From contig JBMFMH010000002.1 in assembly GCA_049970775.1 (NCBI GenBank), positions 1 to 55,112 of the forward strand: 55,112 nt of DNA, read 5' to 3'. Source of the stretch: a bacterium (GTDB lineage: Bacteria; Armatimonadota; JACIXR01). Below, piece by piece: positions 2,776 through 48,640 of the stretch. The stretch's first letter is position 1, and each line of letters opens with the position of its first letter. The translations under genes were made by a program, and so were the position numbers. The notes below the pieces were generated by a model. The model saw nothing but the letters and a program-made list of their open reading frames with translations. It did not search any database and was not told where the DNA came from.

Positions 2776-5421
2776 ATGAATTTTGAGGAAAAATTCCTCA
2801 ATCCACCTAATGACGCTCGCATTCTCAAAATAGTGCATAGCCTCCCGGATAGCCCAGAACAACAAGATGTTCTCTTCTCTCAGCTTCTTGCGCAAGGATT
2901 CGGAGGAATCGTCTGTAATGTCTCCTTCGTTGATTACTTGGAAAGCGAGGAGAAGTGGAAAGCCTTCGTTCGTGGGGTAAAAAGGGCAAAGGAGCTGGGA
3001 ATGGCGCTCTGGCTTTACGATGAAAAGGGTTACCCTTCGGGCACAGCGGGTGGATTGACCTTGAAAAATCATCCGGAATGGGAAGCGAGGGGTCTACTTT
3101 GTGTAGAGAGGGAAACGAAGGGCGGGGAAGATATAGCGCTTGAAGTGCCTCCGGGCAGACTGGTCTCCGCATTGGCTTTCCCAATAACAGAGACAGGAAT
3201 AGATATAAAAGGCAAAGTAGATTTGAGAAGTAAAGTAAAAGATGGCAAATTATCCTGGAGAGCCCCAAGAGGAGATTGGCGCATTTTGATTATCAGTGAA
3301 GACCGCTTATACGAGAGAACCCACGCCGCGGTCAGTTTGGGCGACCGCCTTCCTTACATCAATTTGTTGATGCCTGAACCTACTCGCAAATTCATAGAAT
3401 TAACTCACGAGAAATACGCAAAATACCTGGGGAATAATTTAGGGGAATATTTTATCGCTACTTTTACTGATGAACCCTCCCTTATGAGCTACTTTTTTCA
3501 ACCCTCACCCTATCGTCCTCTCCCCTGGTCCGTGAACCTTCCATTGGAATTCAAGAGAAGGAGAGGTTATGAGCTTGAACCCTTTATACCACTTCTTTTC
3601 AGCGATGGCGAAGGGGCAGAGAAGGTAAGATATGATTTTTGGCAAACGGTAGGGGAACTTGTAGGGGAAAACTTCTTCGGGCAAATAAGAGATTGGTGCA
3701 GAGCGCATAACATCGCTTCCGGTGGGCACCTTCTAATGGAGGAAAGCTTAGTATCTCATATCCCTCTTTATGGCAATTTCTTTCTTTGTTTGAAATCCCT
3801 TGATGCCCCAAGCATAGATTGTTTGACCAGCATCCCTAACGAAGTTCCCTGGCGCATCGCTCGCTATGTGGGCAGCGTGCGTGATTTAAATAAAAATGCA
3901 TATACAATGTGTGAAACCTCGGATTTCATCCAAGTTTACCGCCCTCAAGGGGATAATCGTCCAATAAGAGTTGTAACCGAAGAGGAAATCCGTGGAACCT
4001 GTAATCGCTTGATTTATGGAGGAGTGAATACTATCACGAGTTATTATACATTCACTAACTTATCAACGGAGCAAATCAAGAGATTGAACCTTTGGGTGGG
4101 GCGCTGCTGTGCTATGATGAGAGGTGGTCATCAAGTCTGCGATATCGCTGTGCTTTACCCAGTGGAAAGCTTGTGGGTTCATTTCCGTCCCGCAAGACAA
4201 GGAGCAACTGATTCCCACTTAGCCCAACGAATTGAGCAAACCTTTAATCAAATCTCTCAAACCCTCTACAACTCCAACAGGGATTTCCTTTACATAGATA
4301 CGCCTACTTTGCTCGATGCATCCATTAAGGGTGATACCCTGTCTTACAAGGACCTCACTTGGCGGGTCCTCATACTGCCTTGTGTGGATACTTTGCCTTT
4401 AGAGGCTTGGAAGAAGCTGGAGAGCTATTGGAAGGAAGGAGGAGTAGTAATTGCAGTGGGGGCACTGCCCCAAAATAGCGAAGAAGAGTTTCCCTCTGCT
4501 TATGTCCAAAGTCTTTCCAAGGAATTATTCGGTGGAAAGGAGAAGTTGAGCATAAAGAAAAACAAGAAGGGAGGAGTGGCTATATATCTGCCCTTCGGGG
4601 CAGAGACCCTTCTCCCCCTGCTACTTGACAGAGTGATAGAAAAAGATGTAGAAATCAATGAACCATCAAATTTGCGGGTAACTCACAGAAGAATTGAGGG
4701 GTGGGATGTTTACTTCGTCATCAACGATAGCGATAAAACCTGCAAGCATTCGCTTCGTTTCCGAGGGAAAGGCGAAGTGAGAATACTGGACCCCGGTAGC
4801 GGTGAGATTCGGTCTCTTTCAGATGGAAAAGAAATAGAGATGGAATTCGCCCCTTACGATGCTAAATTCGTCCTATTCACCGATGTGGAAAAACCGAAAA
4901 GGCTTATGCCTTCTGGAAGCATATTATCTATGTTGCTTCTAAAGAGCCTTGATATCTCGGGAGAGAATTTAAATAAGGGCGAGTTCGTTGTCGGCGAATT
5001 GGAGAAAGGGGAAATAGAGGGGAAAGAGGCTTTTAAAATAAAGGGAAAACTCACAAGGAGCAACGAGGATTGCTTTGCGTTTATTTCCTTTCTCCTTACT
5101 GCTCCCACCGACTTAAGAGGAACAAGTCATTTGTTTTTCAAGGTCGCAATACCCCAGAGGCAAAGATTTCCCGCCCATCTGTTTGTTATCGTTAGGGATA
5201 AAGAAGGGAATGAAGCCATAGCTGATACAGGCATATTGCTCTCCGACGAAGGCGAAAGGGAGTTATTTATTTCTCGATCTAAATTTAATCCCGTGCCCTG
5301 GGGAGGAGGAAAACCTGTTGATTGGGAAGAAGTTACAGCGATAAGTATTGGTTGGGGAGGATATTATGGAGAGATAGGAGAAGAATTGCTCTTTTCCACC
5401 AGCCCTCCTTATGTTTTTTAA
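2776..5421 (+). CDS. Putative glycoside hydrolase, possibly GH106-like (family uncertain)
   Basis: A GGAGGG SD lies 8 nt before the ATG at 2776. An alternative upstream start at 2689 would add a hydrophobic N-terminus. The N-terminal pattern is F..NPP...R...GFGGIV.NV...YL..EE.W..F...V..A.ELGM.LWLYDEKGYPSGTAGG, which I associate with GH106-type enzymes. Confidence 0.8.
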   Translation: MNFEEKFLNPPNDARILKIVHSLPDSPEQQDVLFSQLLAQGFGGIVCNVSFVDYLESEEKWKAFVRGVKRAKELGMALWLYDEKGYPSGTAGGLTLKNHPEWEARGLLCVERETKGGEDIALEVPPGRLVSALAFPITETGIDIKGKVDLRSKVKDGKLSWRAPRGDWRILIISEDRLYERTHAAVSLGDRLPYINLLMPEPTRKFIELTHEKYAKYLGNNLGEYFIATFTDEPSLMSYFFQPSPYRPLPWSVNLPLEFKRRRGYELEPFIPLLFSDGEGAEKVRYDFWQTVGELVGENFFGQIRDWCRAHNIASGGHLLMEESLVSHIPLYGNFFLCLKSLDAPSIDCLTSIPNEVPWRIARYVGSVRDLNKNAYTMCETSDFIQVYRPQGDNRPIRVVTEEEIRGTCNRLIYGGVNTITSYYTFTNLSTEQIKRLNLWVGRCCAMMRGGHQVCDIAVLYPVESLWVHFRPARQGATDSHLAQRIEQTFNQISQTLYNSNRDFLYIDTPTLLDASIKGDTLSYKDLTWRVLILPCVDTLPLEAWKKLESYWKEGGVVIAVGALPQNSEEEFPSAYVQSLSKELFGGKEKLSIKKNKKGGVAIYLPFGAETLLPLLLDRVIEKDVEINEPSNLRVTHRRIEGWDVYFVINDSDKTCKHSLRFRGKGEVRILDPGSGEIRSLSDGKEIEMEFAPYDAKFVLFTDVEKPKRLMPSGSILSMLLLKSLDISGENLNKGEFVVGELEKGEIEGKEAFKIKGKLTRSNEDCFAFISFLLTAPTDLRGTSHLFFKVAIPQRQRFPAHLFVIVRDKEGNEAIADTGILLSDEGERELFISRSKFNPVPWGGGKPVDWEEVTAISIGWGGYYGEIGEELLFSTSPPYVF

Positions 5422-5440
5422 GCTTTCATATAAGTGAAAT

Positions 5441-7081
5441 TTACTTGTTTTTAACCACAGGGAGAAGTATGTGGGAGGGATGTTCCTTGTCCATATAAAT
5501 TGTGTTATGGGCTAACCTTCCTTCCGTCTGATTGCGGATTAATTTAGGCACATTTGGATTAGCCTCCCATCCCGGTGAACTGCTAGAAGTTATGTGTAGA
5601 CGGACACGATGTCCCTTATTAAAGATTATGCTTGTTGACCAAAGGTCTATCTCAAAACGATAGATTTTGCCCGGCTTTAGCCATTTTGGCCGCTTATAGG
5701 ATTCCCTGAAGCAGGCTCTTATGATTCCCTCACAGATATTGTATGAACGACCATCGGGATAGACATCACATAACCTTGCTAAAAAATCGGTATCTGGGGC
5801 ATCACTTGACGCCCAGATTATCGCTTTGACCCTTCCTGTTACCTCCAAAGGTTCCCTCAAAGGCTCGCTTGTGAAAACTAAAACATCAGGTCGCTCCTCT
5901 ATCTTTCGTTGGTCCATTGGTCCAGCAGGTATAGTTAATTGATAGCCACCGATTGTGGGAACAGGATTTTTTGGGTCATAAGTGTAGCTTAACTTTCCAC
6001 CTATTGAGGGCTTATTCCATATGAGCTTCTTATCAGGATGTAGGTAAAGAGGGGTATATTCGGCTCTCACTGGTGGCCAGCTATCAGCTGTTCGCCACTC
6101 GTTGCCTGGTGCTTTAGGGTCGCTCAAATCGCCCATAACATAGTAAGTAACTGCCGGCTCCCTATCAACACCGTTGTCAACTCCTTTCAAATAATGGTCA
6201 AACCATTTCCAAGCATCATAGTAGGTTGTGGGTGGATTTTTAGCGTTTGGAAAAGTTAATTCGCCTGCTCTTTCACTGAAGACAGAATGTGTCCATGGAC
6301 CCATAATGAGCTTTTGTTTTCCCCTTGCAGATGGACCACCTTTCCCTTGATAACCCAGAAAAGCGTTAATCGTTCCTTGAGCAAATATATCAAACCATCC
6401 ACCGATGTGGACAGCGGGAGAATTTACATTTTGATACTTATCGCTTATGTCCATAGATTGCCAATAAATATCGTAGGTGGGATGTTTCCTGACGATGTCA
6501 TAGGCGATGGGATTAAATCTCGCCAAGCGAAGCCAATCACCGTATAGAGATTTGCGAAATTCTCCACCAGTATAAACACCATCCTGATAAAGGCTTGGAG
6601 CACCAACCGTTATGTGCTGGGCTGTGATATATTTCACGCCAGTTCCTGCCAAAAGCAGTTGGGTTATTCCTAGGGCAGAACCACCCCAAGTGCCAATTTT
6701 CCCGTTGCACCATTTCTGTCTTATAATCCATTGAACCGTATCATATCCATCCTGCGCATCCTTCTCAAAGGGCAAATTTGCCCCCTCTGAGGCATATCTT
6801 CCCCTTGTATCTTGAATAACCATTGCATAACCTTTCTGGGCACCTTCCATCCCTATGGTTGATAGCGCATTTTTGTCGTAAGGTGTGCGAATGAGAATAA
6901 CGGGGAAGGAACCATTGCCTTCCGGTAAATAGACATCAGTAGCAAGCCTCACCCTATCCCTCATAGGAACCATAAAACTCTCCTTGTTTGGAGAAGATTT
7001 AGCCGGCAGATAGACATAACTGATAACGAGCAACAAAACAAATGGAATGCAAAGACCTACCATCAAATTTTTTCTCATCAT
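5441..7081 (-). CDS. CocE/NonD family hydrolase (S15 X-Pro dipeptidyl-peptidase-like), secreted
   Basis: It has a signal-like N-terminus. VPMRDRVRLATDVYLP...PVILIRTPYDKN is the typical family start, followed by the GGSALG nucleophile elbow and a C-terminal jelly-roll. Confidence 0.9.
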   Translation of the reverse strand: MMRKNLMVGLCIPFVLLLVISYVYLPAKSSPNKESFMVPMRDRVRLATDVYLPEGNGSFPVILIRTPYDKNALSTIGMEGAQKGYAMVIQDTRGRYASEGANLPFEKDAQDGYDTVQWIIRQKWCNGKIGTWGGSALGITQLLLAGTGVKYITAQHITVGAPSLYQDGVYTGGEFRKSLYGDWLRLARFNPIAYDIVRKHPTYDIYWQSMDISDKYQNVNSPAVHIGGWFDIFAQGTINAFLGYQGKGGPSARGKQKLIMGPWTHSVFSERAGELTFPNAKNPPTTYYDAWKWFDHYLKGVDNGVDREPAVTYYVMGDLSDPKAPGNEWRTADSWPPVRAEYTPLYLHPDKKLIWNKPSIGGKLSYTYDPKNPVPTIGGYQLTIPAGPMDQRKIEERPDVLVFTSEPLREPLEVTGRVKAIIWASSDAPDTDFLARLCDVYPDGRSYNICEGIIRACFRESYKRPKWLKPGKIYRFEIDLWSTSIIFNKGHRVRLHITSSSSPGWEANPNVPKLIRNQTEGRLAHNTIYMDKEHPSHILLPVVKNK

Positions 7082-7134
7082 AATTTCCCTCCTTGCTACA
7101 ATGCTAAAATTGAACTACAATTTGCGTCAAGGAT

Positions 7135-9639
7135 ATGTTAGCACCTATGAATCGCCGTCTGCTTCTCTTACTTGTTTTATACTTAATCCTCTTTGAAGGA
7201 GGCTGGGCTATGGCTAATTTAAAACAACAAATAGGAAAAACCATCAATTGGGCTGCCTTTTCCTTCGCTGGCGAGAGACCTTTTCCTCCTCCCTTGGAAT
7301 TGAATTTGATAAGACAGGATTTTGCCCTTTTAAGCTTTGGAGAATCCTGTATGAACACGCCTTTGAAAATCGGCAGAACATCGTTTGCTCGGGGATTGGG
7401 AACTCACGCCAATAGCGAAATAAGGGTGAAGTTGCCGAAAGAAGCGGGCATCTTTAAGGCTTTCGTTGGTATTGACAATAACTTTGATACACAAGGATTC
7501 AGGGGGAGCGTCGTGTTCAGCGTGGAAATAGAAGGCAAGGAATTGATTAGAACTCCGGTTTTGAAGGGAGGAGATGAACCATATCCTATTGAGATAGCTA
7601 TCCCTGAGGGAGCAAAAGAATTGATATTAAAAGTTGATAGCACTCCCGACGGACCAGGCTGGGACCAAGCCGACTGGGCAGACGCCCAAATCATCACTAA
7701 AAGTGGTAAGCTGATTTACCTTGATGAGGGGCAGAACGACCTCCTGCTTCTTGATAAATTCACTCCTCCCTTTTCCTTCATTTACAATGATATGCCATCC
7801 AGCAACCTCTTAACTCATTGGCATAAGGAGGTAAGGAAAAGAGAAGAAAATGAGAAGATAGTTTACGATGTTTCTTGGCTTGACCCTTCAACCCAATTAA
7901 TGGTTAGCGCTGAGGTGAAAATATTCAAGGATTTCCCCGCTGTTGAGTGGGTGCTTTACTTTGAAAATAAAGGAGATACACCAACTCCCCTGATAAGGGA
8001 TATTCAGGCTTTAGATGTAAACCTAGCAACTGGGAATCTTTACAAGGAAGGAATTCTTCATCAGCTTCATGGGGATTCCTGCGACGAGAACTCGTTCTTG
8101 CCGATTGATACTCCCATAAGAATGGGCGATAGTTTAAAAATCACGCCCACTGGTGGACGCCCCTCCTCAATAAGTGGTTTCCCTTTTATGAATTTCCAAT
8201 ATGGAGACAAGGGCATCATCCTTGCGATAGGTTGGACTGGTCAATGGGCTGTTTCCCTTGAACGCCCCCAAACATCAACCTGTGAGACTCTCTTAAGAGC
8301 AGGTATGGAGTTGACGAATTTAAAGCTTTTGCCAGGCGAAAGGATAAGAACACCTCGTATCCTCCTGATGCCTTGGCGAGGAGATAGATGGGAGGCTCAT
8401 AATCTATTTAGAAAATTGTTGATTTCCCATTATGTGCCAAAGCTCAAGGGGAAAGCGCCAGAGCTTCCCATTGCCCTTCAAACATTTGACCGCTATAACT
8501 TCACTCTTCCTTATTGGGCAACTGAGAAAGGGCAGCTGGAAGCTGTGGAATCAGCTCATAAGTTAGGTTGTGATACATACTGGTTTGACGCCGGTTGGTT
8601 TGTAGGTGATTTCCCCAATGGTGTGGGGAATTGGTATCCGAAGCCTGATGCTTTCCCTCGTGGATTGAAGCCGATAAGCGACCTCTGCCATAAATACGGA
8701 ATGAAGTTCGTCCTTTGGGTTGAACCGGAGAGGGTGGCGAAAGGAACGCAAATAGCGAAGGAGCATCCCGAATGGGTATTTGGTGGAGAGAATGGAGGCT
8801 TATTCAAGTTGAATGAACCGGAAGCGAGGAGATGGCTCACCGAGCTTCTCTCCAAGATAATAGAGGATTATGGTTTGGACATTTATCGCAATGACTTCAA
8901 TATAGACCCTTTGCCATATTGGCGGGCAAACGATGAACCCGACCGGCAAGGAATAACGGAGATAAGATATGTTGAGGGTTTATATGAAATGTGGGATGAG
9001 CTATTGAGGAGACATCCAGGATTGATGATAGATAACTGCGCAAGCGGTGGTAGGAGAATAGATTTGGAAACACTTATGCGTTCTGTTCCTCTTTGGCGAA
9101 GTGATACCGGTTGTTCACCAGGGCATCCGGAATGGAATCAAAATCAAAGTATGGGCTTGGCACAGTTCATTCCACTCTTCACTGTTGGGATATGGTCGCC
9201 TGAACCATATGAGTTCAGGAGCGGTCAAACGGCGGGAGCTATCTGTGAGTTCCCTTATTTGGAAAAGGATTTTCAATGGGAATTAGCGAGGAAAATGATA
9301 GAGGAGGCACGGGAAAATAGGAAATATTGGCTCGGTGATTTTTACCCTTTAACCCCCGCAAGCAAATCACTGGAGCAGATAGTTGTATATCAATTTCATA
9401 GGCAGGACCTTAAGGAAGGAATCATCTATGCTTTTCGTCGTCCGGAGTGCGAATATATGGGAATAATAATCGCACCATATGCGTTGTCTTCATCTGCGAC
9501 TTACGAATTTGAATTCATTGACGATTCCCTGAGGAGAAAAAGGCAAACGATTAAAGGTGAGGACCTTCTGAAAAAGGGCTTGGAGATTCGCCTTCCGATG
9601 AAGAGGAGCAGTTTAATAATCCGCTATAAAGAAAAATAA
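7135..9639 (+). CDS. Alpha-galactosidase (GH36) with an N-terminal NPCBM carbohydrate-binding module
   Basis: It has a signal peptide. The NPCBM-like block is GLGTHANSEI...DGPGWDQADWADAQI. The GH36 blocks are YRNDFN (nucleophile region) and DNCASGGRRIDLE. Confidence 0.9.
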   Translation: MLAPMNRRLLLLLVLYLILFEGGWAMANLKQQIGKTINWAAFSFAGERPFPPPLELNLIRQDFALLSFGESCMNTPLKIGRTSFARGLGTHANSEIRVKLPKEAGIFKAFVGIDNNFDTQGFRGSVVFSVEIEGKELIRTPVLKGGDEPYPIEIAIPEGAKELILKVDSTPDGPGWDQADWADAQIITKSGKLIYLDEGQNDLLLLDKFTPPFSFIYNDMPSSNLLTHWHKEVRKREENEKIVYDVSWLDPSTQLMVSAEVKIFKDFPAVEWVLYFENKGDTPTPLIRDIQALDVNLATGNLYKEGILHQLHGDSCDENSFLPIDTPIRMGDSLKITPTGGRPSSISGFPFMNFQYGDKGIILAIGWTGQWAVSLERPQTSTCETLLRAGMELTNLKLLPGERIRTPRILLMPWRGDRWEAHNLFRKLLISHYVPKLKGKAPELPIALQTFDRYNFTLPYWATEKGQLEAVESAHKLGCDTYWFDAGWFVGDFPNGVGNWYPKPDAFPRGLKPISDLCHKYGMKFVLWVEPERVAKGTQIAKEHPEWVFGGENGGLFKLNEPEARRWLTELLSKIIEDYGLDIYRNDFNIDPLPYWRANDEPDRQGITEIRYVEGLYEMWDELLRRHPGLMIDNCASGGRRIDLETLMRSVPLWRSDTGCSPGHPEWNQNQSMGLAQFIPLFTVGIWSPEPYEFRSGQTAGAICEFPYLEKDFQWELARKMIEEARENRKYWLGDFYPLTPASKSLEQIVVYQFHRQDLKEGIIYAFRRPECEYMGIIIAPYALSSSATYEFEFIDDSLRRKRQTIKGEDLLKKGLEIRLPMKRSSLIIRYKEK

Positions 9640-9643
9640 CCTT

Positions 9644-10750: not shown

Positions 10751-12370
10751 ATGAAAAAGGCGTTCATCATTTTTCTTGTTCTCCTGTCCTTTCCCTTGCT
10801 TTCCAAAGAACTGGAGTTAAGGGGTATCTGGATGCAAGCGACCCAAATTAAGGATGAGAGGTCAGCGGAGCAAATAGCTGAGAGAATCGCATCAGCAAAG
10901 CTCAATGCTGTATTTGTTTTGGTGTTTTATTGGGGTGGTAAGAGCTACTTTAAAACAGACCTTTCTCCTTTGGTTTACAATTCCCAAAATGCAGACCTAT
11001 TCGCCTATTTCATTGAGCAATGTCATAGAAGGGGGATAAAGGTTTATGCGAGGTTCTCAATCGGCAAAGAAGGAGGTCAAGGGGACGATGGCATCCTAAT
11101 TAAAAATCCTGATTGGCAAATGGAGAATCAAGCGGGAGAAAGAATCAGATGGTTCGACCTTGGGAAAAAGGATGTGAGGGAATTTCAACTTAAACTTATC
11201 TCGGATTTATTGGAGAGATATCCCATTGATGGAATTCAACTTGATTACATTCGCTATCCTTCAAGGGACTACTGCTACTGTCGGGAATGCAGAGAGAATT
11301 TCAAGCGTCTTTACGGATTTGACCCGCTCTATACTTCTTGTAAGCTTCCCCGCAAATTCAAAATATCCACAACCCCTCTGCTTCATCCTACATCCTCAAC
11401 GGCATTGGCTACCTTTGATAATGGCATACCGGCGATTACCCTGAGGCAGTTTAACTCTGGAACTCTCCTTTACTTTAATTTCACAATAAATTATTCGTCC
11501 GCTCCTCTTTTTCTTTATTCACTTGGGCAAGCTCTGACGACGAAAAAAGAAATCTTAATCATCGCCCCTGGCAAAGAGCTCGGTTATGAGGAAGAAAGCT
11601 ATGGTTTTGTGATTAGCTTATTGAGGAAAGTGGGTTTACAATGGAGGATGATAAGGGATATCGCTCAGATTGACCCGAAAGAATCGCTAATCATCTTGCC
11701 CGGCTTGATTAGGGTAAGCGATGATTTAGGGGATAAGTTGAAGCAATTTCTCTTCTTGGGTGGTAGCTTGTTCGTCAGTGCGGGGCGAAAAGGAATAGAG
11801 GAAAGCAAGGTAAGTGAGACATTGATAGGGGTTAAGGACAAGGGGAGATATATGGTGGGAAACTATCTCATAATCCCAAAAACTGAAAATCCTTTGCTCC
11901 TGTTTTCCGAAGATGTGGAGAGCAAATGGGTTGAATATAGGAAGGAGATAATCACTTCTTTGGTTAAGGAGTTTTATGAAACCACGAAGAGAAAAAATCC
12001 CTCCCTTCTTCTCAGCGCTGCGGTATTTTATGATAAGGCAAGGGCGGAAAAAGTCCTTCAGGATTGGTATAAATGGCTTGAATTGGGGATAGTTGATTTC
12101 GTTGCTCCTATGGCTTATGTTGATGATAATCGTTTGATTTCCGCCTTGAGGGAATGGAAAAGTTATGACTCCAATCTTGAAAAAATAATCCCTGGTTTAA
12201 GAATTTATGAAATAAAGAACGGAAAGGAAGTCGCGCGGGATTTAAAGCAGGTGATGAGACAAATAGAAATTATTAAGAAAGAAGGGGCGAAAGGTTTCAT
12301 CTTGTTTTCTCTCCCCTTCCTGACTGATGATTTATGCCAATATCTTGCTACCCTAGGTCTTGTTGCATAA
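10751..12370 (+). CDS. Glycosyl hydrolase-like 10 (GHL10, YngK-type) family protein with an inserted domain
   Basis: It has a signal peptide. LRGIWMQA...LNAVFVLV...IDGIQLDYIRYP is typical of GHL10. The last 4 sense codons and the stop lie inside a MITE terminal repeat. Confidence 0.85.
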   Translation: MKKAFIIFLVLLSFPLLSKELELRGIWMQATQIKDERSAEQIAERIASAKLNAVFVLVFYWGGKSYFKTDLSPLVYNSQNADLFAYFIEQCHRRGIKVYARFSIGKEGGQGDDGILIKNPDWQMENQAGERIRWFDLGKKDVREFQLKLISDLLERYPIDGIQLDYIRYPSRDYCYCRECRENFKRLYGFDPLYTSCKLPRKFKISTTPLLHPTSSTALATFDNGIPAITLRQFNSGTLLYFNFTINYSSAPLFLYSLGQALTTKKEILIIAPGKELGYEEESYGFVISLLRKVGLQWRMIRDIAQIDPKESLIILPGLIRVSDDLGDKLKQFLFLGGSLFVSAGRKGIEESKVSETLIGVKDKGRYMVGNYLIIPKTENPLLLFSEDVESKWVEYRKEIITSLVKEFYETTKRKNPSLLLSAAVFYDKARAEKVLQDWYKWLELGIVDFVAPMAYVDDNRLISALREWKSYDSNLEKIIPGLRIYEIKNGKEVARDLKQVMRQIEIIKKEGAKGFILFSLPFLTDDLCQYLATLGLVA

Positions 12371-12597
12371 ATCCTATAAAAATACATTTGTTTAAAATCC
12401 TGTAAAGCTCTAACTACTTTTACTTCAAATAAAACGAAGAAAATTGCTAAAATATGGATAAATTCATTTCATTTTCCCATTTAATTTCCCTAATCATCAC
12501 ATTTCTTCAAATTTTTTCCTTTATCGCTCCAATTGTTGGTTGTAAACAGGGGGAATAGAAGCTATTTTCATCTCTTTCTGAATTATGCAACAAAACC
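12356..12597 (+). mobile_element. MITE-like element, copy 1 (242 bp)
   Basis: The terminal inverted repeats are GGTCTTGTTGCATAA (12356-12370) and TTATGCAACAAAACC (12583-12597). An imperfect 8-bp flanking duplication is present: CTACCCTA versus CCACTCTA, 6/8. The internal sequence is shared with copies 2 and 3. Confidence 0.78.
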
Positions 12598-25883: not shown

Positions 25884-26008
25884 AAAATTTCGCTCTTCAA
25901 TACAAGTTTTTGGTGAAATTTTTGCTATAATTGGTAAGTAGAGAATAGGTAACTGAAGTTGAGATAGAGGAAATATTCTTGTGATATGGTCTAAAGGGAA
26001 GCGCTATA

Positions 26009-26173
26009 ATGTTGCGTAATTCCAAAAAAGGAGAACAGCTTTCATTCCTCCCTATTCACCACCAACAAATGGAGCAATAACGAAAAAAAGAAAGATTAGG
26101 AAAATTAAATGGAAAAATGAAAAGGATTTATCGATTTTTTGGAATTTTTTTATAGGATTTATGCAACAAAACC
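26009..26173 (-). mobile_element. MITE-like element, copy 2 (about 165 bp, partly degraded, inverted relative to copy 1)
   Basis: The reverse complement begins GGTTTTGTTGCATAAATCCTATAAAAA. It shares an identical 23-nt run with the start of copy 1, then blocks such as CCATTTAATTTTCCTAATC and GCTCCATTTGTTGGTGGTGAATAGGGAGG. The far end, GAATTACGCAACAT, is degenerate, and no target duplication is recognisable. Confidence 0.65.
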
Positions 26174-26188
26174 ATAAACAGTGAAAAT

Positions 26189-27817
26189 TTGATGACGAGC
26201 TTCAGGGAATTCGTCCTCGTTTGTGAAAAAATAGAAAAAGAAAGTGGTAAGAAGGAAAAGGCGAGACTGATAGGGGAATTTCTTCAACAGCTCTCCCCTA
26301 TTGAAGCTAAAATCATTTCCTATCTTTTCCTCGGCCGCTTTCCGGCGGGAAAAAGAATATTTGTTTCCTGGAACACACTCATTGATGTCCTCGGCGATAT
26401 GTTCCCCATTTCACCGGAAGAGATGGCAAAGATAACTGAAAATGCGCTTGATGTAGGAGACATCGTTGAGGGGATATATAAGCGATGGGATAGATACACT
26501 TCCAAGGGGTTAAGCATTCAAGAGGTATACGAGCATCTTGAAGGATTGGCTGTTCTTGAGGGAAAAGGCGCTATGCAGAAAAGGAAAGCTGTATTGAAAA
26601 GACTTTTAGCGAGTATGGATGAGCTTGAAGCGAAATACCTCGCTAAAGTCATAGTGGGAGAAATGAGAATTGGGGTGAAAGAAGGAATGATTCTGGAGGG
26701 ATTAGCCAGCGCTGTTGGACTTCCCCTTAATGAAATAAGGAAGGGTTTTCTCCTTTTAGGTGATATAGGGGAGACGGTTCGGGCTTTTATAGAGAAAAAG
26801 GAAAAAACCTTGAAATCTACCTCCCTTACCCCTTTTAAACCTCTTCAGCCAATGCTTGCTCAGATGGCGTATTCCTTAAAGGAAGCTTTTGAGGAAATAG
26901 GGGATGAATTGGCACTTGAGTTCAAATATGATGGAGCAAGAGTGCAGATACATAAGGAAAAAGACAAGGTTATGATTTTCTCCCGCCGCCTGAACGATTT
27001 GACGCCTTCCCTCCCGGAGGTAGTGGAGGAAGTGAAAAGGGAGATAAAAGGAGATGTTATTTTGGAAGGGGAAGTAGTGGCTATAAAAGAGGGTAGGTTC
27101 CTCCCCTTTCAAGATATCCTTAGAAGGATAACGAGAAGGAAGGAAATAGAAAAGATACGGGGAGAAATCCCTTTAAAGCTCTTCCTGTTTGATTGTCTAT
27201 ATTTGGATGGTGAGTCCTTGTTGGATATCCCTTATGAGGAAAGATGGAAAAGATTAGAGGAAGTAGCGGGAGGAATTTCTCTTGCGGAAAGGATTTTACC
27301 GAGAAGCCTGGAGGAAGGAGAGCGCTTCCTACGGAAAGCCTTGGAAATGGGTGCCGAGGGAGTTATGGTTAAGGCTTTGAAAGGGATATATACCCCGGGA
27401 AGCAGGGGGAAACTCTGGCTTAAAGTGAAAAAGGCGATAACTTTGGATTTAGTGATAATAGGGGCGGAGTGGGGATATGGAAGGAGACATAACTGGCTAT
27501 CCGATTATCATCTTGCTTGTTGGGATAGAGAGCGGAAAGAGCTGCTAATGGTGGGGAAAACCTTTAAAGGATTGACCGATGAGGAATTTGAGGAGATGAC
27601 GAGGAGACTTCTATCCTTGAAAGTAAAAGAAGAGAAAGGGATAGTTTATGTCAAGCCTGAGGTTGTGGTGGAGGTAGCTTTCAGTGATGTTCAGAGGAGC
27701 TCAAAGTATAAATGCGGGTATGCCCTTCGCTTGGCGAGGATTTTGAGGATAAGGGATGATAAAAAGCCTGAGGAAGCGGACGATATCTCGGCGATTGAGA
27801 AGCTGTATCAAGCCTAA
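26189..27817 (+). CDS. lig: ATP-dependent DNA ligase, three-domain archaeal/eukaryal Lig1-like type
   Basis: Motif I is EFKYDGARVQIH (KxDG), followed by LEGEVVA, LFLFDCLYLDG, EGVMVK...LWLKVK and the C-terminal OB motif LRLARILRIRDDK. The probable start is the ATG at 26192. Confidence 0.9.
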   Translation: MMTSFREFVLVCEKIEKESGKKEKARLIGEFLQQLSPIEAKIISYLFLGRFPAGKRIFVSWNTLIDVLGDMFPISPEEMAKITENALDVGDIVEGIYKRWDRYTSKGLSIQEVYEHLEGLAVLEGKGAMQKRKAVLKRLLASMDELEAKYLAKVIVGEMRIGVKEGMILEGLASAVGLPLNEIRKGFLLLGDIGETVRAFIEKKEKTLKSTSLTPFKPLQPMLAQMAYSLKEAFEEIGDELALEFKYDGARVQIHKEKDKVMIFSRRLNDLTPSLPEVVEEVKREIKGDVILEGEVVAIKEGRFLPFQDILRRITRRKEIEKIRGEIPLKLFLFDCLYLDGESLLDIPYEERWKRLEEVAGGISLAERILPRSLEEGERFLRKALEMGAEGVMVKALKGIYTPGSRGKLWLKVKKAITLDLVIIGAEWGYGRRHNWLSDYHLACWDRERKELLMVGKTFKGLTDEEFEEMTRRLLSLKVKEEKGIVYVKPEVVVEVAFSDVQRSSKYKCGYALRLARILRIRDDKKPEEADDISAIEKLYQA

Positions 27818-43400: not shown

Positions 43401-44303
43401 TGGAAGGCTTCCGAGATTCCAAAGAAATTTGAAACAAAACCGAAAGAAAGCCTTGAAGATGTAATTTGCTTTGACAAGTGGCGATTCTACCCTGATAAAG
43501 ATGGGGTTGTGAGCGGAAGAGAAGAATGGAAATATCCCGATTATGACGATAGCTGCTGGAAAGTGGTCCCCTCAACGCTTTGGAATCTTATACCCGAATT
43601 GTCCAGTTATAAAGGCATCGGGCTTTATAGAGCTAAATTCAGGATACCCAAAGAATGGCAAAGGCATAGGATTATGCTGGAGCTTTACAGCTTTGACCAC
43701 CCAATCATCTATAATTCAGGGCAATTCTTCATCAACGGGAAAGAAGTAGCGAAATACCAGCAAAGGGGATGGAGCCAAACATTCGTTTATGACATAACTG
43801 ATTACCTGCGTGAAGGGGAGAATGTGTTGGCTATTAAGGTGCAAGGCGGAGACGAGTTTTTCACTCTTCAAGCGGGAGGAATTTGCGGTTCCATTTTCCT
43901 CTTTCCCGCTCTCAATTTATCTCCTTCAATTGACTTAAGCGGTAAATGGAAGGTGCTTAAGGGAGATTTCAGAGGATTAGAGGAAACCGAGCTTCCGGGA
44001 AGAGCGAGAGGGAAATGCCTCATTAGGGATATTGAGATACCCGAGGATTGGAAGGGCAAAGAAATATACATTCAGCTTGAAATACCACAACAATGGTTAA
44101 GGAGCATAGCAGTGAATGGAAGATTGATAAACTACAATTCCTACCTCCATCCATTTGGCACCATAAGCGAGGTAAACATCACGCCTTACATAAAGCCAGG
44201 CGAATTAAACAGAATTGAGCTATGGCCTGCTACAATAGCTACATTTAACGAGGAGGATATGGAGGTTAACAAAATAGTTATAGGCTGTAAAATTGAGAGG
44301 TGA
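40410..44303 (+). CDS. Giant secreted glycan-associated protein (GH42-like trimerisation / GATase1-like module plus GH2-type sugar-binding jelly rolls); family unassigned
   Basis: An AAGGAG SD lies 9 nt upstream of the ATG at 40410, followed by the signal peptide MRKAFLFFALFCYLSINTSFS. The ORF-track start at 40305 is rejected. The C-terminal block is YRAKFRIPKEW...FFINGKEV...ENVLAIKVQGG. Confidence 0.8.
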   Translation: MRKAFLFFALFCYLSINTSFSLPNFSVVNLRGYGRVQATIGGGIVKFLCENPEKADILLGKLLADLFWDAKDKHLEREVSLSSGKKIKIHLYPPFGCIALGRKNNLVLGVGGNTEEEVIRKIKENKELLSFFSSDIRFSPEKPYPIYLDFYDLRAFKSYTHAMSSPHQLGVENHWKFVKDFSLGGLATQYTDFQFTNPAPGVFELVPADYEVKEAEKNKGLYVICFNFGGNVPLWFYNKYSQDMMGIPENLLLGGWGREGAAGAHYESWGISYDKRKEGGLRFAEEVMKRYVKSPSLGGWHIYAGAPGGEMSYHSRTTAFYDFSPLGEENFRDYLRKVKGYTLKQLGERWYGDANHFKSWKEVKLPNPFSFYADLDGSFVINRNWKWHKAETDNPPQDDNWIRIEMPPSQEQLFLPWTSAFFKTIFDCRDWLNSNKGKDIYLVCNLYAYDGDGTSVWLNGKFLGKFKSPIGLGPFSLKVNGELKEGFNELVLKVPGEGKIFGPILLTAKEPRFYPYLGKGKNAMFVDFKEWQIHTYCSYHIPGLELARRIDPDRPIILSPDQNTAGYALNFAERYGLGLQFTGQGGWYYPWWTGYGYLRGIYGTSEPGGTIEEKWMDRMMGWILINGESNFNLFWTLEDYMKMEKETGWFSKHKRLVQLFGKSIREKPRIVIFRPTLEMLLDPQETFWVWDIGRGELQASHYDNLYATEEDVERGLVNEYPVLFDCGTTIMDDKMIEAIRKYVEQGGTFIALHNTGRHSLLEPDSWPISKLTGLKVISTDKRGRLRFEANIPIFRGWEGKEFEGEGTALDYRGKEFAKGVGIAMKPEGKDVIPIARWEDGSIAIGYTRLGRGKIIVLGSTFWRSGKDISGVWVNQSELQREFFWRLFSDLGIERNANSSSADIWTRKFITKNGLEEWLIAFNSSSSTVKANISFRVNLKPNEVWDKVEEKAIDFTCEDGWVKIKDLKFNPFETKVFAVKRADIADAISYWWWEKTTYWKASEIPKKFETKPKESLEDVICFDKWRFYPDKDGVVSGREEWKYPDYDDSCWKVVPSTLWNLIPELSSYKGIGLYRAKFRIPKEWQRHRIMLELYSFDHPIIYNSGQFFINGKEVAKYQQRGWSQTFVYDITDYLREGENVLAIKVQGGDEFFTLQAGGICGSIFLFPALNLSPSIDLSGKWKVLKGDFRGLEETELPGRARGKCLIRDIEIPEDWKGKEIYIQLEIPQQWLRSIAVNGRLINYNSYLHPFGTISEVNITPYIKPGELNRIELWPATIATFNEEDMEVNKIVIGCKIER

Positions 44304-44308
44304 GGGAA

Positions 44309-47300
44309 ATGAGGAAAATCTTCCTTTTGGTTTGTGGATTGTTTAGCATCGTCATTTGCCAACAAAAACCAGCTGTTCTTTTCCTCCAGACGGGGTTAGA
44401 GGATAGAGAGGTCGCTAAGAGGCTAATGCAAGCAGGGTTTGAGTTTGACTTCCGCTGGGATTTTCCCGAGGAGAGTTATATCAAGCAGTTCAATGTCGTT
44501 GTTCTGCAACGGGGAGGAGCATATTTAGGCGATAGGGAAAGGGAGATTCTCCTTCGTTTCGTGGCGGAAGGAGGTGGGCTCTTTATCAGCCTTTGGAAAG
44601 GAGAGCATTTGGAGGATTGGAATGGTCAGTTTCGCCTTTTAGAGCAAATAGATGCTCGCCTTCGTCCTGAAGCTGTCCACGACAAAGAAAGGGAGCGAGA
44701 AGGTGGAACTCCCTGGGGTATAATCTTCGCTTCAACCAGCAATATTTTCCCTTCACCCGTTAGCAAGGGGGTAAGCCTTATTTGGTACCCCGTTAGCGAG
44801 GGTGCAGGAGGGGCTTCCGCAACTCTAACATTTGATGTTGGCAATGAATGGCAAATAGTTGTTCGTGGTGAGGCATCAGCGAAAAGCATCCTCTGGGAAA
44901 GCAATGCGAGGGGACTACCGCCAGATATGATACCTCAAGAAGGCATCTCGGCTCCACCTATCTTTGCAATTCGCACCTATGGCGAGGGAAGAATAGCCCT
45001 CTGTTCAATTAATTCCTCCTATCATTTTTGGGGAGGATATGCCACTGCTTTGAAGGGGATAGTTATGGAAAAGGGAATAAATAATCAGCCGAGCCATTTC
45101 CTTCGGCTTCTCCTTAATACCCTTGACTGGCTCGCTGAACCGTCCTTGAAATCGGCTAAATTCGGGGGAGCGAAAACTCCTTCCCAATTACTCCAAGAAC
45201 CAAAACTCCCTTTGGTGCCACCCTGGAATTGGGAAAATCCAAGATTTCCACCTCCCCCAAAGGTCTTCAAGGGCATAGTGGGAGCCCAAACGGGGTTATC
45301 TGGAGGAAAGGGAAAGGTGGAGGATTACGCCAAAATCGCTCGCTCTTTAGGGTTGGATTTTATTGTTTTTCTTGAGGACTTCTCTAACTTGCCCAAGGAT
45401 AAATGGGAAGAGCTCGTTAGGGAATGTATGGCCGTATCGGGGAAAGATTTCCTTGCGGTTCCTGGATTTCGCTTTGAGGATGGATATGGCAACCATTATT
45501 TTTCCGCTGGCTATCGCACTCGCTATCCCGATGATTATCTCCTTGACGAGAAAAGGCGTTTCGCTACGACTCATCCAGATATTAAGGCACCGGGACAAGC
45601 TGGGCTTGTCATCTTGGATTGGATGCATAATCTCAACAGAATGAACCTCACGATAGGTTCCTGGTTGCATTCTCAAAATCCCTGCCCTTACTATGAATTC
45701 AGAGCCTACGACGCAGTTGCTCTTTTCAGCCAAGATTTCCGGAAGGACCCACCAAAGCTTTTAGATGAACTGGTTGAGGGATACAAACATCTCCAAAATA
45801 GGGGGGAGTCCCTTTGGCCGTTTGCTATAAGCCTTATTGATGAGCCAAAACAGCTTAAGAAGGCAATGGAGGAAGGATATTTGAACTTCTTTGAAGCGGC
45901 TGATTTGGATGACCTAAAGGAGCAGATTTCCTCTTGGCATGCCTCAATGCCACCTTATTGCCATCTTCGCTATGTCTCAAATGGACCTCGTATCCTTGAA
46001 TGGCGATTTATCGGTCCACGAGACTATGAAAATTTTGATTGGTTCGACTGGACGCATTGGCGTTGGAGGTTGCGACTCGTCGTGCAATCCGATGTTGGTT
46101 TACGAGAGATTATGGTATACGATGGAGAGGATTTAGTCAGGCATTTCTATCCAAAGGGAGAAAAAAATTTCGTTTGGGAAGAGGACTTCAATCACGGTCA
46201 ACAGCATAACCTCTTTGTAATCGCCCGGGACTTGAAGGGAAGACAGGCTATATCTATGGAGCTCTTTGACCGTCCTCAACCGCTGCTTGAGGAGTTTATG
46301 TGCGGAGATAGGATGAACCAGCTCTCTTATAGTATGCAAAGAAGGGATGATGGCACAGGAGCACAAAGCGGTTTCGTTTGGGGGATGACGCCAAATAAAG
46401 GACCTTGGAATGGAGCGGGGCAAATAGCCCCATCTTCAACTTATAAGCCTGATAATCGCCTTGGAGGAATGATACCCGGCTTTGATGGCGCACCCGGAGG
46501 CGACCCAACTCTTTATATAAATCCCGCCCTTGAATGCGATAAAGGAGAAGAAGACCTGAGTCAAGGAAGGATTTGGACCGATAGACTTCTTCATAGCGCT
46601 GATTTGATGATGGGTTATGGGAGAAGCGATGGCTTTTACCCACCAGGTGTTCCTGCCCTTAATGTCTGGAACACTTTGGCTCCCGCTTTTCCTTCAAAGC
46701 TTTTGGATGCGGAGATTAAACGCACATATTTCAATCTTAGACCGGGACTATTCTCATCAATTCTTGTTGATTTGGAGATAAAATTTAAAGAAGATGTTAA
46801 AGTGGACAAGCTCGTTTTAGGGCAATTCAACAAAGCGGGAGCTAAGAGCTGGTTCATTCGCACTCCTGAAGGGGAAATCATCTCAAGTGAGAAGAATCAC
46901 GACGCCTTTAAAGAATGGGGGAAGTTGAAATTTGTAAAGGACAATTATATTGCCTTTTGCGGCTCACCCCTGGGCTCAGTTGCGGTTTTCAATCTTGGCG
47001 ATGAACCCTTGGATGTTTATGTTCAGAGGGATAGCCCCAGTTGGGAAATCCGCTTTCCCATAGATGGTAAGGTTTTGAAGAAGGGGGATGTTTTAAGGGC
47101 TAAAATTCTGGTAGTGGGAACACCCTTCACGGTTGAACCTGATGAAAAGTGGGTGGAATGGGTGAGGTCCGAGATGGGTTTAGCTGGGAAGCCCGCTTAT
47201 CGTTTAGAAATTGAGAAAGGGAAGGTAATAAGTCAAGAATATATTTTGGAAGTGGATGGGAAAGGAGAAGGATTTGCAGGAAGGATAAGTAAATCCAACT

Positions 47301-47671
47301 TGCCTCTTACGCTTCCCATTGTTGTTAGAGGACTGCAGGAGCGGTGGAGCGTTTTTCTTTTGGAAAGGGATAAGAAAAGAGCGAGACCACTTGGGCAATT
47401 AAATGATAAGGCTTATGCCACAATTGACCTCCGGGAAGGAGACAAGGACATCTTTATTGGACACCCAATCGTTTGCGATGACAAAGAAATCTTTATAAAT
47501 GTGGTTCAAACTGGAGATAAGAGATTCAGTGTATATTTGCACAATCCAAGTTCAAAGAAGAAAAACATAATAATTAGGAGCAATAACTTATGGAGTTGGG
47601 GTAAGCTTCGCCCCCAGAAACTATCCCTCAATCCCGGAGAGGTTAAACAAATAGAATGGTTTGTTGATTGA
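44309..47671 (+). CDS. Giant secreted protein of unknown function (N-terminal GATase1/ThuA-like fold suspected)
   Basis: The ATG at 44309 is preceded by GAGGTGAGGG, and a signal peptide MRKIFLLVCGLFSIVICQ is present. It sits 5 nt after the upstream gene's stop (with the GTG at 44300, a 4-nt overlap). No catalytic motif was recognised. Confidence 0.8.
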   Translation: MRKIFLLVCGLFSIVICQQKPAVLFLQTGLEDREVAKRLMQAGFEFDFRWDFPEESYIKQFNVVVLQRGGAYLGDREREILLRFVAEGGGLFISLWKGEHLEDWNGQFRLLEQIDARLRPEAVHDKEREREGGTPWGIIFASTSNIFPSPVSKGVSLIWYPVSEGAGGASATLTFDVGNEWQIVVRGEASAKSILWESNARGLPPDMIPQEGISAPPIFAIRTYGEGRIALCSINSSYHFWGGYATALKGIVMEKGINNQPSHFLRLLLNTLDWLAEPSLKSAKFGGAKTPSQLLQEPKLPLVPPWNWENPRFPPPPKVFKGIVGAQTGLSGGKGKVEDYAKIARSLGLDFIVFLEDFSNLPKDKWEELVRECMAVSGKDFLAVPGFRFEDGYGNHYFSAGYRTRYPDDYLLDEKRRFATTHPDIKAPGQAGLVILDWMHNLNRMNLTIGSWLHSQNPCPYYEFRAYDAVALFSQDFRKDPPKLLDELVEGYKHLQNRGESLWPFAISLIDEPKQLKKAMEEGYLNFFEAADLDDLKEQISSWHASMPPYCHLRYVSNGPRILEWRFIGPRDYENFDWFDWTHWRWRLRLVVQSDVGLREIMVYDGEDLVRHFYPKGEKNFVWEEDFNHGQQHNLFVIARDLKGRQAISMELFDRPQPLLEEFMCGDRMNQLSYSMQRRDDGTGAQSGFVWGMTPNKGPWNGAGQIAPSSTYKPDNRLGGMIPGFDGAPGGDPTLYINPALECDKGEEDLSQGRIWTDRLLHSADLMMGYGRSDGFYPPGVPALNVWNTLAPAFPSKLLDAEIKRTYFNLRPGLFSSILVDLEIKFKEDVKVDKLVLGQFNKAGAKSWFIRTPEGEIISSEKNHDAFKEWGKLKFVKDNYIAFCGSPLGSVAVFNLGDEPLDVYVQRDSPSWEIRFPIDGKVLKKGDVLRAKILVVGTPFTVEPDEKWVEWVRSEMGLAGKPAYRLEIEKGKVISQEYILEVDGKGEGFAGRISKSNLPLTLPIVVRGLQERWSVFLLERDKKRARPLGQLNDKAYATIDLREGDKDIFIGHPIVCDDKEIFINVVQTGDKRFSVYLHNPSSKKKNIIIRSNNLWSWGKLRPQKLSLNPGEVKQIEWFVD

Positions 47672-47678
47672 AAAGAAG
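47671..47678. repeat. Left target-site duplication AAAAGAAG of MITE copy 3
   Basis: It is identical to 47877-47884 and lies immediately outside the left TIR. Confidence 0.85.
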
Positions 47679-47876
47679 GGCTTTGTTGAATAAATCGAAT
47701 AAAAACATATTTTCCTTACTTTCTGTAAATTTTGAACAAATCCTCCTCTTCGTAAATGAGGAAAATTCTTTAAAAGGAATATATTTCAAGATTTTTTTTA
47801 TTTTTCCTTTTGTTAGCAGTTGATAATGGGAAATATAAGGCTGTTTCCTTCTTTTTCGGAATTATTCAACAAAGCC
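47679..47876 (+). mobile_element. MITE-like element, copy 3 (198 bp)
   Basis: A perfect 15-bp TIR is present: GGCTTTGTTGAATAA (47679-47693) and TTATTCAACAAAGCC (47862-47876). It is flanked by a perfect 8-bp direct repeat. The 3' internal third aligns with copy 1. Confidence 0.88.
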
Positions 47877-47884
47877 AAAAGAAG
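47877..47884. repeat. Right target-site duplication AAAAGAAG of MITE copy 3
   Basis: It is identical to 47671-47678 and lies immediately outside the right TIR. Confidence 0.85.
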
Positions 47885-47893
47885 TAGCGATTG

Positions 47894-48640
47894 CTATCTT
47901 TCACCAAGCTCTCTCAAGAAAACATCCGTCTTCCCGCTTTTTTCCGCTCTTAAATCTATAAAGGGAGGTAAGATGGAGCGCAAATCTTCCCTTATCCTCT
48001 GAGGCATCTCTTCTTCTCGTAGTAGATGGGGCGGTGTTTTCATCAGCTTCTTCATATAATCCCTTGTTTCCTTTTCTATTTGAACGGCATCAGTTGAATG
48101 GGAGATACATTCTCCGCAAATGAGCCCTCCGCTTGCGGGTGAGAAGAAAATTCTGCCCTCCATTTTCCTCCTACAGAAAAGGCAATTATCAAGCTCGGGT
48201 TTAAACCCAAGGTGGGAAAGAAGCTTCAGCTCCCAGGAGCGAGCGATTAGCTCGGGGTCTTTAGCTTTCTCAATCACATAGAGGTGGGCGAGGAGAGAAT
48301 CAAATAAATCTTTGTCCGCTTCCTCTTCCTCAGTCATTCTGTCCAGCAGTTCAACAATTGAGGAAGCGAAGGCGAATTTTTCCATATCCTCAATCAAGGA
48401 AAGAAAACCGTGCTTAAGCCTTCCCTGAGTGATTATATGGAAGGTTTTGCCCTTAACGAGGAGAAGATGAGAATAAGCAAAGAGTTGTGTTAAAGGAGCA
48501 AGGCTGTTCTTCGGTTTTCTTGCCCCTTTCGCTATAGCGGAGAGTTTGCCCTTAGCCTCCGTGTAAAGGATAACTAAGCGGTCCGCTTCTCCTTGATTAA
48601 AGTTTCGTAGAACCACAGCATTTGTGGATAGGAAACGCAT
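47894..48640 (-). CDS. recO: DNA repair protein RecO
   Basis: The N-terminal OB region is AVVLRNFNQGEADRLVILYTEAKGKLSAIAKGARK. The C-terminal zinc motif is CLFCRRK...CGEC. Confidence 0.9.
   Translation of the reverse strand: MRFLSTNAVVLRNFNQGEADRLVILYTEAKGKLSAIAKGARKPKNSLAPLTQLFAYSHLLLVKGKTFHIITQGRLKHGFLSLIEDMEKFAFASSIVELLDRMTEEEEADKDLFDSLLAHLYVIEKAKDPELIARSWELKLLSHLGFKPELDNCLFCRRKMEGRIFFSPASGGLICGECISHSTDAVQIEKETRDYMKKLMKTPPHLLREEEMPQRIREDLRSILPPFIDLRAEKSGKTDVFLRELGER

What the first reader, a model, noticed from the sequence alone, without database searches (positions are those of the whole stretch)
47671..47884. Textbook MITE: 198-bp element with a perfect 15-bp TIR and a perfect 8-bp target-site duplication between two convergent genes
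GGCTTTGTTGAATAA (47679-47693) is the exact reverse complement of TTATTCAACAAAGCC (47862-47876). The element is bracketed by AAAAGAAG on both sides (47671-47678 and 47877-47884). It has no coding capacity and is AT-rich inside. It shares its terminal repeat consensus (GGYTTTGTTGMATAA) and internal blocks with elements at 12356-12597 and 26009-26173, so it is a dispersed family rather than a chance palindrome. An 8-bp duplication and GG-initial TIRs are compatible with mobilisation by IS1595-, ISL3- or IS1-type transposases. None is encoded in this window, and I cannot assign the family. Removing the element and one repeat copy leaves only about 16 bp between the two convergent stop codons.
Basis: seen in the sequence. 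Interest (0 to 1): 0.6.

Follow-up and report, generated by a model that had tools for sequence, protein, structure and literature searches.

The report
IS903-type MITE between two converging genes
This is a real 198-bp non-coding jumping element (a MITE) with ends like those of insertion sequence IS903; a nearly identical strain lacks it at this exact spot, so it inserted recently, but it is an ordinary kind of selfish DNA.

Summary
There is a 198-bp AT-rich element (47679-47876) with perfect 15-nt terminal inverted repeats, flanked by AAAAGAAG on both sides. It sits in what was a 16-bp spacer between the stop codons of a 1123-aa ORF and recO.

A contig of another MAG (L004), 98.4-99.7% identical on both flanks, carries the empty site with one copy of the 8-bp target. 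This shows an insertion polymorphism and an 8-bp duplication.

The element belongs to a dispersed family. The window holds three copies. In a hot-spring metagenome more than 120 contigs with different flanks pile onto its ends, at 55-90 times the depth of the flanks.

The first 21 nt are identical to the left end of IS903B, and the family consensus matches the ends of ISAba12/MITEAba12. Full-length 1.05-kb elements with these ends in metagenomes encode the same IS5-family transposase model (NF033579) as IS903B. So this is an IS903-group-type MITE, moved in trans.

It makes 8-bp duplications, not the group's usual 9 bp. The autonomous partner was not found, because the tools for the window's own genome were closed.

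It is a new member of a known kind, of modest interest.

The parts
47671..47678 (.). Left copy of the 8-bp target-site duplication AAAAGAAG. Its first base is the A of the TGA stop of the 1123-aa ORF.
   Evidence: In L004, bases 1374-1381 align to both duplication copies.
47679..47703 (+). Left terminal inverted repeat: 15 nt perfect, 25 nt at 84%. The first 21 nt, GGCTTTGTTGAATAAATCGAA, are identical to IS903B IRL.
47679..47876 (.). The whole 198-bp MITE: non-coding and 27.8% G+C.
   Evidence: Contigs of other copies diverge from the window's flanks at 47679/47682 and at 47878/47880 in metagenome contigs.
47807..47820 (+). Internal block CCTTTTGTTAGCAG. It repeats the TTTGTTG core of the terminal repeat and is conserved in the other copies (12527-12542 CTCCAATTGTTGGTTG). 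It may be a subterminal transposase site; this is inferred only.
   Evidence: Alignment; inverted repeat I11.
47852..47876 (-). Right terminal inverted repeat (GGCTTTGTTGAATAATTCCGAAAAA on the minus strand).
   Evidence: Contigs L001-L003 of three other assemblies break 28-29 nt inside it.
47877..47884 (.). Right copy of the 8-bp target-site duplication AAAAGAAG.
12356..12597 (+). Second family member, 242 bp, between a 539-aa ORF and rad50. Its flanks CTACCCTA / CCACTCTA match at 6 of 8, a decayed 8-bp duplication. The TAA stop of the 539-aa ORF lies inside the left repeat.
   Evidence: Contigs of other copies diverge from the window's flanks at 12355/12356 and at 12597.
26005..26173 (-). Third family member, 169 bp, in inverted orientation, 15 nt upstream of the ligase ORF. 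Its far end is decayed (TATAATGTTGCGTAA) and it has no duplication.

Best explanation
The 198-bp stretch is a miniature inverted-repeat transposable element with no transposase gene of its own.

What is shown:
- It has transposon ends and a target duplication.
- It is absent, to the base, from the same site in a nearly identical genome.
- It belongs to a high-copy family whose members lie in many different flanks.
- Its ends are those of IS903-group (IS5 family) insertion sequences.

What is inferred:
- A DDE transposase of that group (NCBIfam NF033579 type), encoded elsewhere in the genome or community, binds the roughly 18-bp terminal repeats.
- It cuts at the terminal GG and joins the ends to target DNA through cuts staggered by 8 bp. 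Repair of the gaps gives the AAAAGAAG duplication.
- The insertion landed in the 16-bp spacer between two converging stop codons and changed neither protein, so it is probably neutral there.
- The element itself most likely has no cellular function.
For: Structure:
- 15-nt perfect terminal repeats (25 nt at 84%) and an 8-bp direct repeat.
- No comparable inverted repeat elsewhere in 55 kb apart from the RNase P stem.

Empty site:
- L004 (GCA_049701235.1) reads ...TTGATTGA-AGAGAAG-TAGCGATTG..., without the element.
- It is 99.7% and 98.4% identical to the two flanks, and its bases 1374-1381 align to both duplication copies.

Family and copy number:
- Three copies in the window.
- In metagenome run X1 the flanks have depth about 11. 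The ends of the element sum to 620-920 over 132 contigs. For the 12356 copy the ends sum to 360-980 over 123 contigs.
- Contigs of other copies run on into different, poorly agreeing sequence exactly at the element's ends.
- Three independent assemblies break inside the right repeat.
- A further copy, 90.5% identical over 95 nt, lies elsewhere in assembly ERZ3623746.

Assignment to a transposon family:
- The first 21 nt equal IS903B IRL (PMC10569121).
- That end borders an annotated IS903B transposase gene in thousands of plasmids.
- MITEAba12 and ISAba12 have ends GGCTTTGTTGCA(C/T)AAA (PMC6382973).
- Full-length elements of 1047-1156 bp with the same ends in metagenomes (L020, L041, L045) encode NF033579 transposases at 313-338 bits. 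IS903B's own transposase hits the same model at 356 bits.
Against: - No transposase with matching ends was found in this organism. None is in the window (tblastn).
- The duplication is 8 bp. IS903B, MITEAba12 and the metagenomic elements with these ends make 9 bp: six perfect cases and four at 8/9. The mobilising enzyme therefore differs from the canonical group, or this event was atypical.
- Only one perfect and one decayed duplication could be examined for this family.
- The depth ratio sums all organisms in the metagenome, so it is not a true copy number.
- Run X1 may be the sample from which the window was assembled.
Confidence: 0.9

Rival explanations
1. It is a MITE, but it is mobilised by a transposase of a family that typically makes 8-bp duplications (IS1595, ISL3, IS256 or the ISH1 group of IS5). 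On this reading the likeness of the ends to IS903 is convergent or ancestral.
For: The duplication is 8 bp, fixed by the empty site. The decayed flanks of the second copy fit 8 bp better than 9 (6/8 against 2/9, from the flanks). All elements with these ends that I could check elsewhere make 9 bp.
Against: - 21 consecutive identical bases with IS903B IRL cannot be chance.
- The family consensus matches ISAba12-type ends.
- Every full-length element recovered with these ends encodes an NF033579 IS5-family transposase.
- IS1-type ends (ISKpn14) are unlike.
Confidence: 0.07
2. The element is ancestral at this site, and L004 lost it by deletion between the two 8-bp repeats (precise excision). The polymorphism would then record loss, not a recent insertion.
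For: Recombination or replication slippage between short direct repeats can remove an element precisely. The remaining target in L004 (AAGAGAAG) differs by one base from both copies in the window, so the direction of the change is not given by the sequences alone.
Against: - The two duplication copies are still identical and the terminal repeats are perfect over 15 nt, which points to a young insertion.
- Loss from the filled allele would leave AAAAGAAG, so a further mutation is needed.
- Either way the thing is a mobile element, so this rival changes only the history.
Confidence: 0.1
3. It is a functional structured RNA or regulatory module that is merely repeated, for example a transcript-end hairpin or insulator between converging genes.
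For: - The single strand folds better than shuffles (-26 kcal/mol, z -4.1).
- Two of the three copies in the window sit between converging stop codons in a genome with almost no spacer at such junctions.
Against: - The fold is carried by the terminal repeats alone.
- There is no Rfam match and no terminator- or promoter-like site in the element.
- The site is empty in a 98.4-99.7% identical strain.
- Copies lie in many unrelated flanks.
- Interiors vary by indels and replaced segments.
Confidence: 0.04

Closest known systems
MITEAba12 and its proposed parent ISAba12 (Acinetobacter and other Moraxellaceae; PMC6382973)
   Same: Both are short, AT-rich, non-coding elements bounded by almost the same ends. 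MITEAba12 has GGCTTTGTTGCATAAA; here the ends are GGCTTTGTTGAATAAA and GGYYTTGTTGCATAAA. Both are dispersed, polymorphic between strains, and presumed to be moved in trans by an IS5-family transposase.
   Different: - MITEAba12 is 113 bp and highly uniform; this family is 169-242 bp with variable interiors.
- MITEAba12 makes 9-bp duplications; this element makes 8 bp.
- MITEAba12 has a co-resident parent with the same ends; none could be searched for here.
- The host here is an uncultivated hot-spring bacterium.
- Similarity beyond the ends was not tested.
IS903 / IS903B (IS5 family, IS903 group)
   Same: The first 21 nt of the element equal IS903B IRL. Elements with these ends encode NF033579 transposases, as IS903B does.
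   Different: IS903B is about 1.06 kb and carries its own transposase. It makes 9-bp duplications (CTCAGATGC). Beyond nucleotide 21 there is no similarity.
Unnamed short elements with IS903-type ends in JGI metagenomes (L014/L028/L030/L037, 100 bp; L023/L027/L038, 154 bp; L021/L026/L034/L047, 90 bp; L017/L043/L044, 113-115 bp)
   Same: They have the same terminal repeat, the same size class and no coding capacity.
   Different: There is no similarity beyond about 25-38 nt of the ends. Their duplications are 9 bp.

Membership tests
Bacterial MITE (non-autonomous DDE-transposon derivative) | Short (about 50-600 bp) and without a transposase gene | tested here: met
   198 bp. The longest stop-free frame is 61 codons and there are stops in all six frames.
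Bacterial MITE (non-autonomous DDE-transposon derivative) | Terminal inverted repeats | tested here: met
   15 nt perfect, 25 nt at 84%. It is the strongest such repeat in the window.
Bacterial MITE (non-autonomous DDE-transposon derivative) | Target-site duplication, confirmed against an empty site | tested here: met
   AAAAGAAG on both sides. The 8 bases 1374-1381 of L004 align to both copies.
Bacterial MITE (non-autonomous DDE-transposon derivative) | Many dispersed copies in different flanks | tested here: met
   Three copies in 55 kb. In run X1, 123-132 contigs lie on it, with summed depth 55-90 times that of the flanks and differing adjoining sequence at both ends.
Bacterial MITE (non-autonomous DDE-transposon derivative) | Autonomous partner with the same ends in the same genome | not testable with these tools
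The genome is not in genome contigs. No transposase homologue is in the window.
IS5 family, IS903 group (as source of the ends) | Ends starting GGC and matching the roughly 18-bp IS903 inverted repeat | tested here: met
   21/21 nt match IS903B IRL. The identity of that end was verified in plasmid records.
IS5 family, IS903 group (as source of the ends) | 9-bp target duplication | tested here: not met
   It is 8 bp here. It is 9 bp for IS903B, MITEAba12 and the metagenomic elements.
IS5 family, IS903 group (as source of the ends) | Elements with these ends encode an NF033579-type DDE transposase | tested here: met
   L020, L041 and L045 score 313-338 bits. IS903B scores 356 bits. This is shown for other hosts only, not for this organism.
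   The ISKpn14 ends quoted share only the initial GG with this element.
   No reference ends for these families were at hand. The 8-bp duplication alone is compatible with them.
Structured RNA families (Rfam) | Match to a covariance model | tested here: not met
   The only Rfam match in the window is RNase P at 1950-2284.

The most novel reading that the evidence does not exclude
The family may be driven by an IS903-like transposase variant that cuts its target 8 bp apart instead of 9. It may also land preferentially, or survive only, in the tiny spacers where two genes converge. There the long terminal-repeat hairpin might serve as a transcript-end structure in a genome that otherwise lacks intrinsic terminators.

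Two of the three copies in the window lie in such junctions. By my rough count from the ORF table, these junctions make up about 2-4% of the intergenic DNA. This is a post hoc observation on three copies.
Probability: 0.08. Interest if true: 0.5.

Novelty: new member of a known kind. Interest (0 to 1): 0.25.

Why it matters
The element is a clean, base-resolved example of recent transposon activity in an uncultivated hot-spring bacterium.

- It explains why short-read assemblies of this organism shatter. Three independent assemblies break inside this element.
- It marks strain-level polymorphism that can be used to tell populations apart.
- IS903-type ends turn out to be reused by many unrelated short elements in environmental metagenomes.
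- The 8-bp duplication, where the group makes 9 bp, is a small mechanistic oddity worth a look once the parent element is known.
- It does not open a new question.

Tried and rejected
Copies in the genome could not be counted and the autonomous partner could not be sought.
- The genome-contig scan with the family's left end, TTGTTGMATAAATCNNATAAAAA, gave 8 single matches in unrelated organisms and none next to a transposase.
- The metagenome-contig scan with GGYYTTGTTGMATAAWTCNNAWARA gave 35 loci. None resembles this family beyond the ends. They were still useful as a reference set for IS903-type ends.
- The viral-contig scan found nothing.
- Exact-protein look-ups for genes beside the other two copies and at the window's far end found nothing. 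Empty sites for copies 2 and 3 could therefore not be checked.
- No RNA runs hold the locus.
- No joint that skips the whole element appears in runs X1-X3. The empty allele comes from another MAG only.

Ideas rejected:
- A 9-bp duplication with a shifted boundary: the 9 bases on the left (GAAAAGAAG) and on the right (AAAAGAAGT) are out of register. Contigs from other copies stop matching exactly at GG and CC.
- Promoter or terminator content of the element: none found.

Full report
**The observation**

- GGCTTTGTTGAATAA (47679-47693) and its exact reverse complement (47862-47876) bound a 198-bp stretch. The repeat extends to 25 nt at 84%.
- AAAAGAAG stands directly outside both ends (47671-47678 and 47877-47884).
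- The upstream ORF (44300-47671, 1123 aa, no Pfam match) ends in TGA, and the last A of TGA is the first base of the left repeat copy.
- The downstream gene on the minus strand is recO (47894-48640; RecO_N and RecO_C).
- The element is 27.8% G+C against 44.5% for the window. It has stops in all six frames.
- A scan of the whole window for inverted repeats within 400 nt finds this pair as the strongest. The only other non-palindromic pair is the closing stem of the RNase P RNA gene.

**It is an insertion, to the base**

An exact-protein look-up of RecO returned four contigs from other assemblies.
- Three of them (an NCBI MAG, an ENA assembly and the Logan contigs of SRR6344962) are 99.8% identical to the window. 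All three stop 28-29 nt inside the right terminal repeat. That is how short-read assemblers behave at a repeat.
- The fourth, L004 from MAG GCA_049701235.1, runs straight from recO into the 1123-aa gene. It reads ...GGTTTGTTGATTGA-AGAGAAG-TAGCGATTGCTA....
- L004 is 99.7% identical to the window on the recO side and 98.4% on the other side. Its bases 1374-1381 align to both AAAAGAAG copies.

The target in L004 differs by one base (AAGAGAAG). Neither flanking protein is changed by the insertion.

A 9-bp reading does not work. The nine bases on the left (GAAAAGAAG) and on the right (AAAAGAAGT) are out of register. Contigs from other copies diverge exactly at the GG and CC ends.

**It is a high-copy family**

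In the window:
- The 12356-12597 and 26005-26173 elements are 75% identical over 157 nt (E 7e-24).
- Both share about 37 nt at the left end and about 110 nt at the right end with the 47679 copy.
- A profile of the three finds no further copy in the window.

In the metagenomes:
- The locus occurs in three hot-spring metagenome runs.
- In run X1 the flanks have a contig depth of about 11. The ends of the element sum to 620-920 over 132 contigs. The ends of the 12356 copy sum to 360-980 over 123 contigs.
- At 47679/47682, 47878/47880, 12355/12356 and 12597, groups of contigs run on into different, poorly agreeing sequence.
- This ratio sums everything in the community, so it is not a copy number. 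It does agree in order of magnitude with three copies per 55 kb.
- Interiors vary. Contigs skip 85-94 nt of the interior, and three of them carry 15-25 other letters in the gap.
- A further copy, 90.5% identical over 95 nt, lies upstream of the DUF4438 gene in assembly ERZ3623746, where the window has unrelated sequence.
- The Logan contig L003 comes from SRR6344962. One paper lists that run as its sample C03 and names C03 as Zavarzin spring, Kamchatka (PMC8468003).

**Which transposon family**

- The first 21 nt, GGCTTTGTTGAATAAATCGAA, are identical to the left inverted repeat of IS903B as printed in PMC10569121.
- That 50-nt end matches thousands of plasmid records, where it borders an annotated 'IS5-like element IS903B family transposase' gene.
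- The family consensus GGYYTTGTTGMATAAWTC also matches the ends of ISAba12 and MITEAba12, GGCTTTGTTGCA(C/T)AAA (PMC6382973).
- A metagenome scan with the consensus returned 35 loci. Sixteen are other short elements of 90-154 bp bounded by these ends. Three are full-length elements of 1047-1156 bp.
- The transposases of those three hit NCBIfam NF033579 at 313-338 bits against a cut-off of 140. IS903B's own transposase hits the same model at 356 bits.

The ends therefore belong to the IS903 group of the IS5 family.

One defining habit of that group is not met. IS903B, MITEAba12 and the metagenomic elements make 9-bp duplications: six perfect cases and four at 8/9. This element made 8 bp. The decayed flanks of the second copy (CTACCCTA / CCACTCTA) also fit 8 bp better than 9.

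**Mechanism**

Shown:
- transposon ends;
- a target duplication;
- an empty site;
- many copies;
- ends of IS903 type.

Inferred:
- an IS903-like DDE transposase supplied in trans binds the terminal repeats, excises or copies the element, and inserts it through 8-bp staggered cuts.

From my own knowledge of IS903 genetics (Derbyshire and Grindley), which I did not test here: the inner part of the 18-bp repeat binds the transposase and the outermost bases are needed for catalysis. This fits the pattern that the variable positions among copies are 3, 4, 11 and 16.

No such transposase is in the window.

**Rivals**

- A structured RNA or a terminator is unlikely. There is no Rfam match. No promoter- or terminator-like site lies in the element. 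The good fold (z -4.1) comes from the terminal repeats. The site is empty in a near-identical strain.
- Loss by deletion in L004, instead of gain here, cannot be excluded from two alleles. It would not change what the element is.
- Mobilisation by a family that makes 8-bp duplications would require the 21-nt identity with IS903B to be a coincidence.

**Earlier notes of this scan**

- Notes on the same window (e1-3329257, e1-3329258, e1-3329267, e1-3329268) describe the other copies and the tight convergent junctions. I confirmed the copies and the junction geometry. I did not confirm the suggested fourth copy.
- Notes on other hot-spring genomes (e1-986602, e1-1399010, e1-1454303, e1-1512312) report roughly 200-bp MITEs with IS903-like ends, 9-bp duplications and promoter-adjacent positions.
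- This family differs from those. It makes an 8-bp duplication, two of three copies lie between converging stop codons, and no sequence match to those findings was returned.

**Verdict**

This is a correct call of an ordinary thing: a new family of IS903-type MITE that was recently active. Its one small deviation is the 8-bp duplication. The parent element is unknown.

Noticed in passing
window 25981-26192: The far end of the third copy is decayed to TATAATGTTGCGTAA. Its TATAAT forms a promoter-like site with GTGATA 18 nt upstream (10 of 12 matches, plus strand). That site would read through the whole element into the ligase ORF, which starts 15-18 nt past the intact end. The element may thus form the 5' leader of the ligase gene.
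   Followed up: partly
L051 91-243 (ERZ3623746) against window 1-359: In this assembly the DNA upstream of the DUF4438 gene is unrelated to the window's, up to the ribosome-binding site at window 360. It carries another family copy: an intact end at 229-243, a decayed far end, and 90.5% identity to the left 95 nt of the 47679 copy. L050 and L052 share this arrangement at their first 18 nt. L049 shares the window's arrangement.
   Followed up: partly
L049 9695-11264 against window 9641 onward: MAG GCA_049720205.1 is 99.45% identical to window 3-9641. It then continues with 1.57 kb that matches nothing in the window: a plus-strand gene of at least 519 aa instead of the minus-strand 352-aa gene. 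This is a strain difference exactly at a tight convergent junction. No MITE is involved.
   Followed up: no
L014, L017, L021, L023, L026-L028, L030, L033-L035, L037, L038, L043, L044, L047: At least five unrelated families of 90-154-bp elements bounded by IS903-type ends occur in JGI metagenomes. Most have 9-bp duplications, and several are present in 3-4 copies. These ends appear to be reused widely by MITEs.
   Followed up: partly
window 12356-12597 and 47679-47876: Two of the three copies lie in spacers between converging stop codons. By my rough count from the ORF table, such spacers are about 2-4% of the window's intergenic DNA. This may reflect tolerance of insertions there or target choice. 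Three copies are too few to tell.
   Followed up: no
window 47807-47820, 12527-12542: A conserved internal block, CC(T/A)(T/A)TTGTT(A/G)G, lies about 55 nt inside the right end. It repeats the core of the terminal repeat in the orientation of the left end.
   Followed up: no
window 44300-47671: The 1123-aa ORF upstream of the element has no Pfam match at E 0.001.
   Followed up: no
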